From: Escherichia coli
Lineage (GTDB): Bacteria; Pseudomonadota; Gammaproteobacteria; Enterobacterales; Enterobacteriaceae
Reading direction: 5' to 3' (one strand)
Assembly: GCF_045037415.1 (NCBI RefSeq)
Contig: NZ_CP173438.1
Length of the DNA: 64,000 bases
Positions within the stretch are counted from its first letter, which is position 1; every line of letters starts with the position of its first letter. A program made the position numbers. Of the stretch, positions 42,601 to 45,600 are shown piece by piece.

Positions 42601-45600
42601 CACCAGAGATATCTGGCAATTTAAAATGACCCGATTACCTTTAATAACCAGATCAATACAAATAATATTCTCGTATTTTCAGGGCAGGTTATTTATCGAC
42701 AGAATACTGATATAACCTGTCTGCTTTCTGATAAGGGCTTCTTTTTTTATCTTCCAGAAACTCCGGAATGCCATAATTTAGTCAAATGCCGACGACTCAT
42801 CTGTATAATAAGGTGCAAGCCTTGCTGCAAGAGCATTCAGCCGTATAAGTCTCCCCAGTGTTGTACTGAAATACCCATTATTCATCTGGTATTTCTCGCA
42901 GACCTCCTTACGGGAGTGCCCACCTACCAGATAGTCCTTCATAGCCAGAATGACCCTGTCACTGTGAATAGAAGAAATACCTATCAGTAAAAAAAAATGC
43001 ATTTCAGACATAGAGCCGGGCAACAGTACGCTCTCGCGTATATTCAGCAAAAACGCATTTCCTGACCGACTGATGACTTCATGATGCGCCATGTTTCCCC
43101 CTTCTGTCGGGCCCCTGGATATATGCTTCCGGCCCGGAAATACTCTTCACGCAATAAGTTAAATTTAGTTTTTTATGTTGTAAATATTGATTTAAACGAT
43201 CTTTTAACCCGCAAAACAAAACCAAACCAGAATAAAACACCAACAACAAGAATACACTCAGATAAAAACATCATGGTGAATTGAATTTACAGCATAAAAG
43301 ATCGTCTAAATGCATTTTTACGGACTTTCTTTTCACAGAAAAATAACACACAAAATGTGATATACATCAAATAAAGCCAACAAAAAGCAAATTCACTAAA
43401 TTTCACAAATAAAGCAAACCCAGAGAATAAAAATACCTTTCCGTTGATAACAGAGAGCATGATTTTTATTATTCGAAGAAACTTTGTTACAGTGAGATGA
43501 GTGAATATATGAAGAATGAAATACTGGAATTTCTGAACAGGCATAATGGAGGGAAAACCGCAGAAATTGCGGAGGCGCTGGCGGTAACGGATTACCAGGC
43601 ACGCTATTACCTGTTATTACTGGAAAAAGAAGGTATGGTTCAGCGCTCTCCATTAAGGCGAGGCATGGCGACATACTGGTTTTTGAAAGGAGAGATGCAG
43701 GCGGGACAAAACTGTTCTTCCACAACTTAATAACTCAGTTTGTGGGCATGCTTCACTGAAACAGATAAAAGCTACATCAGAGTGCAGATTCAATTTTGCA
43801 GCATTCGTCACAAAATAAAAATCCAGCATTTTATGTCAGAATACCTCACATGATAATAAAACCTGTCCGGTTTTACTGCATGGCCAGACATTATAAAAAA
43901 GCAAATCCTGTAAACTCCATTCAGCCTCCTTGCTGTCCGGTAACGGAGGCTGTTTTTTCGTTACGCCTTTCCCCGGCAGCATCAGTAGCAGTAATTTATA
44001 GATTCTACGAACTGAGACTGTCTGTCCAGGGAGAACATACGCATCCCGGCGCAATGCTCCGGTCATTTACAACCTGCTTCTGATCATAAACGCCACGATC
44101 CTTGGCTCTCACAGATTTCGGGAGAAGAAAGTTAGTTTACAGGCAGAAACCACTCATAATATTGACATGAGAAAGATTTTCTGTTATACAAAAAACATAT
44201 GAAATGATATAACATCACAAACTGGAGTTTTTATGGCAGAATCCGGGTTTATTTCTCTCGAATTATCCCGCTCACAGGCGCCTGTTACAATTAGCAAGAC
44301 AGCTATACTCTTTGCAGAAGCAGACAATGATACCCCGGAGTCAACTCATCTACATTGCGTTGGTGGTATCACTCATACCGTAAATGGTGTTTTTAACGAT
44401 ATTGCAGAATTACTTCCGCGATTCATTAAGACGCACCGTCGGGATAATGGTCAGCCCGCAGTGGCTATCCATGACTGGAATGTTTCATACATTGAAAAAG
44501 GCAACGATGCTTCTGCTGTTGTTTACTTCACAGAATCAGGCTCAAGTATAACCGTCCGTGAATCTTACGAAGACATAATAGCAAAGTTTCACGCTCTTTA
44601 GTCAACACCTGTGCTGAGAATTAAAGCAGGGGCAGGATACAATTATCCTGCCCCTGCCGTTAAAGATTATACAATGAGTATTACTTTGTAATATTTCGGT
44701 GGTGGGTTATAAAGATGTGGTCTCCTCAGAGGATCGTTTATGGCAGATAGTGCAGATATTGCTTATGAAAATGAACAATTCAGCATGAGCATCAGACTAA
44801 AAAATCGTATCCGGAATAGACTCCCTGAAACAGGATTCTGCTATAACTGCGGAGAACCTGTTAAGACTGGATTGTTTTGTGATGGTGACTGTCGGGAAGA
44901 TTATGAGAAACGTGAACGATTTGGACAAATAAATACTGACAATGTTTAAAAGCAATACAATTACTGATATCTCTTTCAGACTTCAGAATTAAAGAAAACT
45001 GCCCGAATGTTATCCGAAAAGCAGCTGTAATTAGTAATGCTCTTATCAGGAGTGAAACATCACCTCCCAGAATACATCAGAACAGAAGGATAACAGTTAT
45101 CCGATGTGACGGCTATAATGTGCCGACACAGAGGGTTACTCACCGATCTCCTTCACGGTAATACGCAGCTCTGAGCATGGTGGTGAGCGGGGAGTGCTAC
45201 TGTACAGCCTGATCGGGACGTGCAAACTGAACGACGAGGATCCAGAAAACTACCTTCGCCATGTGTTTGGCGTCATAGCTGACTGGCCGGTCAACCATGT
45301 CAGCGAACTGCTTCCGTGGCGCATAGCACTGCCCGCTGAATAACACATCCCCGTCAATACGGCCCTCGCTGTACTCTTACCGTGGATCCAGCAGTCCACT
45401 TATTTGCATGAATAAACGAGTGGTCGCAGACCACGCAACATCATTCAAATCCCCCGCTAATATTACAGGTAACTTCAGTGTGTATGGAAACACCTCATTA
45501 ACTGTTATCACAAATAAAACGCATACCTGTTCCATATGAAATTTATCACGCCTGACTACATAACATTAATTATCCGGAGAACTGGGATGCCCGTGACACA

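What the first reader, a model, noticed from the sequence alone, without database searches (positions are those of the whole stretch)
43093..43496. Intact pap epigenetic switch: divergent papI/papB with GATC sites exactly 102 bp apart
The papI-papB intergenic region contains the two Dam sites in their characteristic contexts (TTTAAACGATCTTTTAACCC at 43198 and AAAAGATCGTCTAAAT at 43300), with the spacing known for Lrp/PapI-controlled phase variation. The regulatory machinery is conserved even though the usher is disrupted, which suggests the papC lesion is recent or artefactual.
Basis: partly seen in the sequence, partly recalled or inferred. Interest (0 to 1): 0.3.

Follow-up and report, generated by a model that had tools for sequence, protein, structure and literature searches.

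The report
Ordinary intact pap phase-variation switch
This is the textbook Dam/Lrp/PapI on-off switch of the P-fimbrial (pap) operon, base-for-base identical to that of strain UTI89, and the "broken" usher gene next to it is most likely a sequencing error at a methylated GAGACC site, not a real mutation.

Summary
papB (42778-43092, minus strand) and papI (43497-43730, plus strand) flank a 404-bp spacer. The spacer holds exactly two GATC sites, at 43198 and 43300, 102 bp apart. Each lies in an inverted ACGATCTTTT box.

papB, the spacer and papI are 100% identical to UTI89 and to many ST131 genomes. In eight diverse pap alleles the boxes and the 102-bp spacing never change, although the 90 bp between the boxes carries 19 variable positions and no indel. 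A CRP-like site and both predicted promoters fit the published geometry. This is the known pap epigenetic switch, apparently intact.

The papC "lesion" is a one-base deletion at 40166, inside a GGTCTC/GAGACC site. Against an ST131 reference, 55 kb of the window shows one SNP and four one-base indels. Three of the indels fall in three of the nine GAGACC sites. Two same-clone public assemblies (Esc8, Esc28) differ from each other only at two of those sites, and Esc8 reads papC as intact. GAGACC is methylated on both strands by the Eco31I-type system of ST131. The frameshift is therefore most likely a methylation-induced basecalling artefact.

Verdict: already known, low interest.

The parts
42778..43092 (-). 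papB, 104 aa; activator and autoregulator, first gene of the papBA transcript
   Evidence: ORF. Pfam PF03333 PapB, 125 bits. Same protein, WP_000930062.1, in UTI89 and in all 8 alleles compared.
43156..43184 (-). Candidate papBA promoter: -35 TTTACA (reverse complement of 43179-43184), 17-nt spacer, -10 TAACTT (reverse complement of 43156-43161); predicted start near 43148
   Evidence: Read directly from the sequence. Too weak for the consensus scan. Lies in the invariant block 43120-43210. It places the CRP site about 215 bp upstream, which matches the -215.5 position I recall from Weyand 2001.
43191..43210 (.). Promoter-proximal GATC box (GATC 43198-43201; Lrp site 2), containing ACGATCTTTT
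   Evidence: Invariant in 8 pap alleles and conserved in sfa.
43211..43278 (.). Variable part of the spacer between the boxes; expected position of Lrp sites 1 and 4
   Evidence: 20 variable positions lie in 43211-43278 and no indel, among 8 alleles (the tool's own 19-of-90 count covers 43206-43295 and leaves out 43211). GN2-3TTT candidates at 43235-43241 and 43266-43272 on the minus strand.
43296..43311 (.). Promoter-distal GATC box (GATC 43300-43303; Lrp site 5), ACGATCTTTT on the minus strand
   Evidence: Lies in the invariant block 43279-43312.
43180..43321 (.). 36-nt inverted repeat that carries the two GATC boxes (arms 43180-43215 and 43286-43321)
   Evidence: the repeat finder pair I1, 78% complementary.
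43356..43371 (.). CRP (CAP) site candidate TGTGAtatacaTCAAA, centre 43363.5
   Evidence: Read from the sequence. TGTGA and TCAAA are conserved in all pap alleles; sfa keeps TGTGA but has TCCAA in place of TCAAA. About 115.5 bp from the predicted pI start and about 215.5 bp from the predicted pBA start.
43368..43425 (.). PapB site 1 region: direct repeats CAAATAAAGCc/aAAC (43368-43381 and 43406-43419) and a single 9-bp unit AGCAAACCC (43413-43421)
   Evidence: for the direct repeats. One search shows the 9-bp unit present in 1-5 copies in other alleles. [quoted passage not shown]
43444..43472 (+). papI promoter: TTGATA, 17-nt spacer, TATTAT; predicted start near 43479
   Evidence: Consensus scan, 10 of 12 matches.
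43497..43730 (+). papI, 77 aa; co-regulator that shifts Lrp to the distal sites
   Evidence: ORF. Pfam PF04703 FaeA, 111 bits. Identical to UTI89 PapI, WP_000006209.1.
33823..42570 (-). Structural operon papA-H-C-D-J-K-E-F-G(II) plus papX, driven by the switch
   Evidence: ORFs. Annotation of identical DNA in Esc28 and AZ146.
38789..41298 (-). papC usher, reading frame broken in this assembly
   Evidence: Two ORFs carry PapC_N plus Usher positions 2-177, and Usher positions 204-549 plus PapC_C. PGAP marks it 'frameshifted' in Esc28.
40163..40168 (.). Site of the one-base deletion: reference GGTCTC (= GAGACC, Eco31I-type methylation site) reads GGTTC here
   Evidence: Esc8 reads GGTTCC and Esc28 reads GGTTC, while AZ146 and UTI89 read GGTCTC; all 663 genomes that match this papC stretch except the 7 Esc assemblies differ from the window's version.

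Best explanation
The region is the canonical pap regulatory region, a heritable on/off switch.

Mechanism, taken from the literature:
- In OFF cells Lrp occupies sites 1-3. These overlap the papBA promoter and cover the proximal GATC (43198), which stays unmethylated, while Dam methylates the distal GATC (43300).
- After replication, PapI together with Lrp can move to sites 4-6 around the distal GATC. Dam then methylates the proximal site, which locks Lrp out.
- Lrp at the distal sites, together with CRP at about -215, then activates papBA.
- PapB bound upstream of the papI promoter raises papI expression and closes a positive loop.

Shown here: every cis element is present in the published geometry, and both regulators are intact and identical to those of UTI89. 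Inferred: that the switch actually operates in this strain.

The operon it controls is probably intact too. The single-base deletion that splits papC lies in a GAGACC/GGTCTC site, which the Eco31I-type enzymes of ST131 modify on both strands. It is best explained as a methylation-induced long-read basecalling or polishing error.
For: Switch:
[quoted passage not shown]
- papB, the spacer and papI are 100% identical to UTI89. Khandige 2015 counts P-fimbriated cells in UTI89 populations (PMC4546395).
- The boxes and their spacing are invariant in 8 alleles, while the inter-box DNA has 19 variable positions and no indel. sfa keeps the same 102-bp spacing.
- PMC2909390 calls two GATC boxes at 102-bp spacing plus a PapI-like protein the family's signature.
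- The pI promoter was found by the scan, and the CRP-like site lies about 115.5 and 215.5 bp from the two predicted starts.

Artefact:
- Against Ecol_AZ146, 55 kb of the window shows 1 SNP and 4 one-base indels.
- Three of the four indels lie in 3 of the only 9 GAGACC sites. Those sites cover about 0.1% of the bases, so the chance of this is roughly 1e-8.
- Esc8 and Esc28, assemblies of very similar size, differ over 50 kb by no SNP and only 2 positions, both at these GAGACC sites.
- The papC site reads GAACC in the window and Esc28, GGAACC in Esc8 (papC annotated intact), and GAGACC in AZ146 and UTI89. All 663 genomes that match this papC stretch, apart from the 7 Esc assemblies, differ from the window's version.
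- M1/M2.EcoMI of ST131 strain EC958 methylate GAG(m6A)CC (100% of sites detected) and are predicted to methylate GGT(m5C)TC. According to that paper, only M.EcoMVII is missing from most ST131 genomes.
- Methylation-induced nanopore errors are described in PMC10687267 and PMC11610573 (abstracts shown).
Against: - No methylation or expression data exist for this strain, and dam and lrp are outside the window.
- The individual Lrp sites were located only by a loose motif, not by footprint data. The Nou 1995 paper that defines them is not held in the library.
- The sequencing platform of the window and of the Esc assemblies is unknown. The Eco31I-type genes were not located in these genomes (searches failed to find the locus in EC958).
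- Among the complete genomes searched, the papC deletion appears only in the Esc series, so the error, if it is one, is specific to one pipeline.
- Seven assemblies share it, which could also reflect real inheritance.
Confidence: 0.85

Rival explanations
1. The switch is intact, but the papC frameshift is a real, very recent, lineage-specific mutation. ON-phase cells would then transcribe the operon and make subunits, PapB and PapX, but assemble no pili.
For: The same deletion is present in the window and in 7 RefSeq assemblies (Esc9, 15, 16, 26, 27, 28, 29). PGAP annotates it as a frameshift. No other decay is seen in the operon, which fits a recent event. Frameshifted papC has been reported in another strain, BH100 (PMC11203468).
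Against: The window differs from the Esc clone by SNPs at 28372, 35315 and 41751, yet shares the deletion. Esc8, of the same clone as Esc28, lacks it and shows a third garbled state at the same hexamer. A real mutation would therefore have to recur or revert. Two other indels hit the same rare motif. Indels outnumber SNPs 4 to 1. The changes fall on the hexamer that the methyltransferases modify.
Confidence: 0.12
2. The pap regulatory region is a silent relic locked in one phase. The sequence is conserved only because the island was acquired recently, and the 102-bp spacing is incidental.
For: Spacing alone is not significant: three GATC pairs in the window are 102 bp apart. No functional data exist for this strain.
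Against: The region is identical to the allele of UTI89, in which P-fimbriated cells have been counted. The boxes and spacing are invariant across alleles that differ at 34 other positions. Both regulators are full length. The composite box pattern occurred in none of 100 shuffles.
Confidence: 0.03

Closest known systems
pap operon of E. coli UTI89 (and papGII islands of ST131, e.g. Ecol_AZ146)
   Same: papB, the 404-bp intergenic region and papI are 100% identical. The whole stretch 33000-47000 shows no substitution against AZ146. Island context is the same: tRNA-Phe, integrase, pap, then the ucl fimbrial operon.
   Different: UTI89 carries papG-III and divergent papE/papF; the window carries papG-II. 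The window assembly has the one-base gap in papC.
Classical pap regulatory region of the Low and Uhlin laboratories (GATC1028/GATC1130, Lrp sites 1-6, CAP at -215.5)
   Same: Two GATC boxes 102 bp apart, ACGATC cores in inverted orientation, CRP site, PapB site, divergent pI and pBA promoters (literature).
   Different: No direct alignment to that clone was possible because its sequence is not held. The comparison used UTI89, ABU 83972 and six other alleles instead. The window has one copy of the 9-bp AGCAAAC(A/C)C unit, where other alleles have up to five.
sfa/foc regulatory region (sfaC-sfaB)
   Same: Same box sequences (ACGATCTTTT and AAAAGATCGT) at the same 102-bp spacing; the TGTGA half of the CRP-like site is conserved (the other half reads TCCAA); PapB- and PapI-family regulators.
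   Different: An extra GATC lies 8 bp from the proximal one. The spacer and flanks are unrelated, and the intergenic region is 355 bp.
Ag43 (agn43) and gtr Dam/OxyR switches
   Same: Heritable ON/OFF state set by competition between Dam and a DNA-binding protein at GATC sites (PMC2909390).
   Different: They use OxyR, have no PapI-like co-factor, and do not have two alternative sets of Lrp sites.

Membership tests
Pap-type Dam/Lrp/PapI phase-variation switch | Divergently transcribed PapI-like (FaeA family) and PapB-family regulator genes flanking a spacer of about 400 bp | tested here: met
   papI PF04703, 111 bits; papB PF03333, 125 bits; 404-bp spacer.
Pap-type Dam/Lrp/PapI phase-variation switch | Two GATC boxes at a conserved 102-bp spacing | tested here: met
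   GATC at 43198 and 43300. Same spacing in 8 pap alleles and in sfa. Named as the family signature in PMC2909390.
Pap-type Dam/Lrp/PapI phase-variation switch | ACGATC core in both boxes, the PapI-dependent Lrp recognition sequence (recalled from Hernday 2003, not re-read) | tested here: met
   ACGATCTTTT on the plus strand at 43196 and on the minus strand at 43296-43305; these are the only exact copies in the window.
Pap-type Dam/Lrp/PapI phase-variation switch | Six Lrp sites in two sets of three, with site 3 over the papBA -35/-10 region | tested here: inconclusive
   GN2-3TTT motifs occur at roughly the expected positions (43168, 43198, 43235-43241, 43266-43272, 43297-43303, 43312-43328), but the motif is loose in DNA that is 67% A+T. 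Support comes from identity to UTI89 and the invariant blocks.
Pap-type Dam/Lrp/PapI phase-variation switch | CRP site between the distal Lrp sites and papI; PapB site upstream of pI | tested here: met
   TGTGAtatacaTCAAA at 43356-43371. The 9-bp-unit region at 43368-43425 falls 40-90 bp upstream of the predicted pI start (PMC11316696).
Pap-type Dam/Lrp/PapI phase-variation switch | Mutually exclusive methylation of the two GATC sites in ON and OFF cells | not testable with these tools
   This needs per-read SMRT or nanopore methylation calls, or methylation-sensitive digestion.
Pap-type Dam/Lrp/PapI phase-variation switch | Dam and Lrp present in the host | not testable with these tools
   Both genes lie outside the 64-kb window. 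From general knowledge they are standard chromosomal genes of E. coli.
Functional P-fimbrial chaperone-usher operon | Complete papAHCDJKEFG with an intact usher | tested here: inconclusive
   All genes are present. papC is split by a one-base gap at 40166. The gap is probably an assembly artefact at a GAGACC site.

The most novel reading that the evidence does not exclude
If the papC frameshift is real, this lineage keeps a perfectly conserved epigenetic switch that no longer controls pilus assembly. The switch would still toggle PapB and PapX, so it would act as a bistable regulator only. From my recollection of the literature, not re-read here, PapB inhibits type 1 fimbrial switching and PapX represses motility.
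Probability: 0.05. Interest if true: 0.35.

Novelty: already known. Interest (0 to 1): 0.1.

Why it matters
For biology it matters little: this is the best-studied bacterial epigenetic switch, in a common ST131/UTI89 allele.

There are two practical points:
- A virulence-gene 'pseudogene' call (papC, and the AAA-domain gene hit at 25981) in this assembly and in several RefSeq 'Esc' assemblies probably reflects methylation-induced sequencing error at Eco31I-type sites. Inferences about loss of P fimbriae from such assemblies would then be wrong.
- The allele comparison illustrates selection on spacing rather than sequence: 19 variable positions and no indel between the boxes.

Tried and rejected
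- Chance: the 102-bp spacing alone is not significant, because three such GATC pairs exist in the window. The claim rests on the box context and on homology.
- Real, inherited papC lesion: considered and judged unlikely, because the site is garbled in three different ways and is inconsistent with the SNP relationships.
- Dcm-site error at 25981: my first reading, from BLAST's gap placement, was wrong. Explicit comparison shows GAGACC changed to GAACC.
- Locating the Eco31I-type R-M locus in EC958, in order to test for it in the Esc genomes: two blind fetches, at the chromosome start and at the hsd region, did not contain it, and I abandoned the attempt.
- Literature: Nou 1995 (PMC394697) is not held. 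A substring search for ACGATC returned only unrelated papers. NCBIfam has no PapI or PapB model.
- Rfam found no RNA family in the switch itself.

Full report
**1. Observation**

Reading 42700-44000 and listing ORFs shows a 104-aa ORF on the minus strand at 42778-43092 and a 77-aa ORF on the plus strand at 43497-43730. Pfam assigns them to PapB (PF03333, 125 bits) and FaeA/PapI (PF04703, 111 bits). The quoted contexts are right; the strings start at 43191 and 43296.

The spacing alone is weak evidence. Three GATC pairs in the window are exactly 102 bp apart. The context is not chance:
- The only two exact ACGATCTTTT copies in 64 kb are these two, on opposite strands.
- The composite pattern ACGATCTTTT-N(88-96)-AAAAGATCGT occurred in none of 100 shuffles.
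- The boxes sit in a 36-nt inverted repeat, 43180-43215 / 43286-43321.

**2. Identity**

A 1.1-kb query covering papB, the spacer and papI matches 1,334 of 5,426 complete E. coli genomes. It is 100% identical to UTI89, NU14, UM146 and many ST131 strains, where the genes are annotated as papI and an 'adhesin biosynthesis transcription regulatory family protein', i.e. papB. [quoted passage not shown] The window runs from chromosomal genes (mscM, frd, ampC, groESL, aspA, dsbD) through tRNA-Phe and an integrase into an island that carries pap and the four-gene ucl fimbrial operon.

**3. Anatomy of the switch**

- A sigma-70 scan finds the papI promoter: TTGATA, 17 nt, TATTAT at 43444-43472. This predicts a start near 43479.
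- Reading the minus strand gives a weak papBA promoter: TTTACA (43184-43179), 17 nt, TAACTT (43161-43156). This predicts a start near 43148.
- A CRP-like site, TGTGAtatacaTCAAA, spans 43356-43371 with its centre at 43363.5. That is about 115.5 bp from the pI start and about 215.5 bp from the pBA start. These match the positions I recall from the literature (CAP acting 'from -215', Weyand 2001); this is recollection, not re-read.
- On this geometry the GATC at 43198 lies at about -50 to -53 and is the promoter-proximal site (Lrp site 2). The GATC at 43300 is the distal site (Lrp site 5).
[quoted passage not shown] Here that is roughly 43389-43439. This interval contains the second of the direct repeats CAAATAAAGC(C/A)AAC (43406-43419, the first copy at 43368-43381 lies just before it) and a 9-bp unit, AGCAAACCC.
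- GN2-3TTT motifs occur near the expected Lrp positions. The motif is too loose to count as proof.

**4.

I aligned the spacer with seven other pap alleles spanning 98% to 87% identity (ABU 83972, Seattle 1946, TUM1226, Tig228, HB-Coli0, O177:H21, AH20K059) and with an sfa region.
- All eight pap alleles have GATC at the same two positions, 102 bp apart.
- The blocks 43120-43210 (pBA promoter, site 3, proximal box) and 43279-43312 (distal box) are invariant.
- The 90 bp between the boxes carries 19 of the 34 variable positions and no indel. The distance is conserved while the sequence is not.
- sfa keeps both boxes at 102 bp and adds a third GATC.
- The only length variation is 1-5 copies of the 9-bp unit AGCAAACAC in the PapB-site region. 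The window has one copy.

**5. Mechanism (literature; not tested here)**

- In OFF cells Lrp binds sites 1-3. This blocks the papBA promoter and protects the proximal GATC from Dam, while the distal GATC is methylated.
- With PapI, Lrp affinity shifts to sites 4-6. Methylation of the proximal GATC then prevents Lrp from returning.
- Lrp/PapI at the distal sites, together with CRP, activates papBA.
- PapB activates papI, which reinforces the ON state.
- H-NS, CpxR, RimJ and PapR modulate switching.

Shown here: all cis elements and both local regulators are present and unmutated. Inferred: that switching occurs in this strain.

**6. The papC lesion**

papC is split into ORFs 39997-41319 (PapC_N plus the first third of the usher barrel) and 38789-40090 (the rest of the barrel plus PapC_C). 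The cause is a single missing base at 40166 relative to UTI89.

- Of 663 genomes carrying this papC stretch, only seven match the window's version exactly. These are the 'Esc' assemblies Esc9, 15, 16, 26, 27, 28 and 29, which are of near-identical size. The listed remainder are 99.8% identical over 452 bases against the query's 451, which fits the one-base gap. PGAP marks papC 'frameshifted' in Esc28.
- Against ST131 strain Ecol_AZ146, window 33000-47000 shows no substitution and only two one-base indels.
- Over 55 kb there is one SNP and four one-base indels. That ratio is unlike ordinary divergence.

Explicit comparison at every GAGACC/GGTCTC site shows that three of the four indels lie in three of the only nine such sites:

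| Window position | AZ146 (reference) | Window | Esc8 | Esc28 |
|---|---|---|---|---|
| 25981 | GAGACC | GAACC | GAACC | GAGACC (correct) |
| 33608 | GAGACC | GAGAACC | GAGAACC | GAGAACC |
| 40166 (papC) | GAGACC | GAACC | GGAACC (papC annotated intact) | GAACC |

The fourth indel, at 15694, shortens a run of five G to four.

Esc8 and Esc28 differ over 50 kb by no SNP and exactly two positions, both at these sites. The window itself is not an Esc clone member. It differs from Esc8 at 28372, 35315 and 41751, plus three positions at 54030-54036 at the edge of the aligned block (one search shows 28372, 35315 and 41751 also differ from Esc28). A real deletion would therefore have to arise or revert repeatedly.

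Forde 2015 (PMC4659465) showed the following for ST131 strain EC958:
- It carries an Eco31I-identical type IIS system.
- M1.EcoMI methylates GAG(m6A)CC, with 100% of sites detected as methylated.
- M2.EcoMI is predicted to methylate GGT(m5C)TC.
- Of all the EC958 methyltransferase genes, only M.EcoMVII is absent from most ST131 genomes.

Modification types that basecalling models were not trained on are a described source of nanopore errors (PMC10687267 and PMC11610573, abstracts).

I therefore conclude, with about 85% confidence, that the papC 'frameshift', and the frameshift of the AAA-domain gene at 25981, are consensus errors at doubly methylated sites. I could not establish the sequencing platform, and I could not locate the methyltransferase genes in these genomes.

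**7. Comparison with known systems and verdict**

This is the pap switch itself, in the UTI89/ST131 allele. It is not a variant. The family-defining features that can be tested from sequence are met, apart from the six individual Lrp sites, which a loose motif cannot settle. Differential methylation and the presence of Dam and Lrp cannot be tested with this window.

Novelty: already known. Interest is low, at 0.1. The useful by-product is a warning that pseudogene calls at GAGACC sites in this assembly and in the related RefSeq assemblies should not be trusted.

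Noticed in passing
window 25981, 33608, 40166 (also Esc8 locus L014/L016 and Esc28 locus L015): Three of the nine GAGACC/GGTCTC sites shared with ST131 Ecol_AZ146 are garbled, reading GAACC, GAGAACC or GGAACC. The state differs between same-clone public assemblies. The change at 25981 frameshifts the 3.5-kb AAA-domain gene in the window and in Esc8, but not in Esc28.
   Followed up: yes
window 15694: A run of five G is shortened to four in the window only. It lies in the intergenic DNA between yjeH and groS. It looks like a homopolymer consensus error.
   Followed up: partly
window 52449-52640 (upstream of uclA; ucl operon at 47492-52448, minus strand): Four GATC sites (52478, 52535, 52584, 52597) lie upstream of uclA. 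Three of them fall within about 65 bp, next to a perfect OxyR half-site, ATAGGTGCAATCTAT. Hancock 2022 (PMC9236248) shows that OxyR controls the ucl promoter and invokes unknown co-factors, but never mentions Dam or GATC. An Ag43-like Dam/OxyR phase switch about 9 kb from the pap switch is possible and untested.
   Followed up: partly
window 43413-43421; loci L007-L010, about 720-790: The 9-bp unit AGCAAACAC between the CRP site and the papI promoter (the PapB site 1 region) varies from 1 to 5 tandem copies among pap alleles. This accounts for the spacer lengths 404, 413, 422, 431 and 440 bp. The window has a single, slightly different copy, AGCAAACCC. The effect on PapB binding or switch rate is unknown.
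   Followed up: partly
window 43883-44059 (+): An Rfam match to RF02876 AS-pc02 ('Antisense to pHK01_099'), 56.8 bits against a gathering score of 40, lies about 150 bp downstream of papI in DNA with no annotated gene.
   Followed up: no
loci L007-L009 (Tig228, HB-Coli0, O177:H21), about 814-1110: In the alleles with 2-4 copies of the 9-bp unit, papI is annotated as a longer 92-aa FaeA/PapI protein (WP_001349530.1). Its 3' end overlaps a truncated IS91/ISCR2 transposase, so the C-terminus of PapI appears to have been replaced by the insertion.
   Followed up: no
window 55128-56374 and 58373-59820: These stretches do not align with Ecol_AZ146, so the island differs in mobile-element content at its far end. 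The Esc genomes diverge from the window after about 54040, where they carry a two-partner-secretion locus instead.
   Followed up: no
window 41751 (papH) and 35315 (papG-II): The Esc clone differs from the window and from AZ146 by two substitutions. The one in papH turns a Dcm site, CCAGG, into CCAGA, so it may also be a methylation-related call rather than a real SNP.
   Followed up: no
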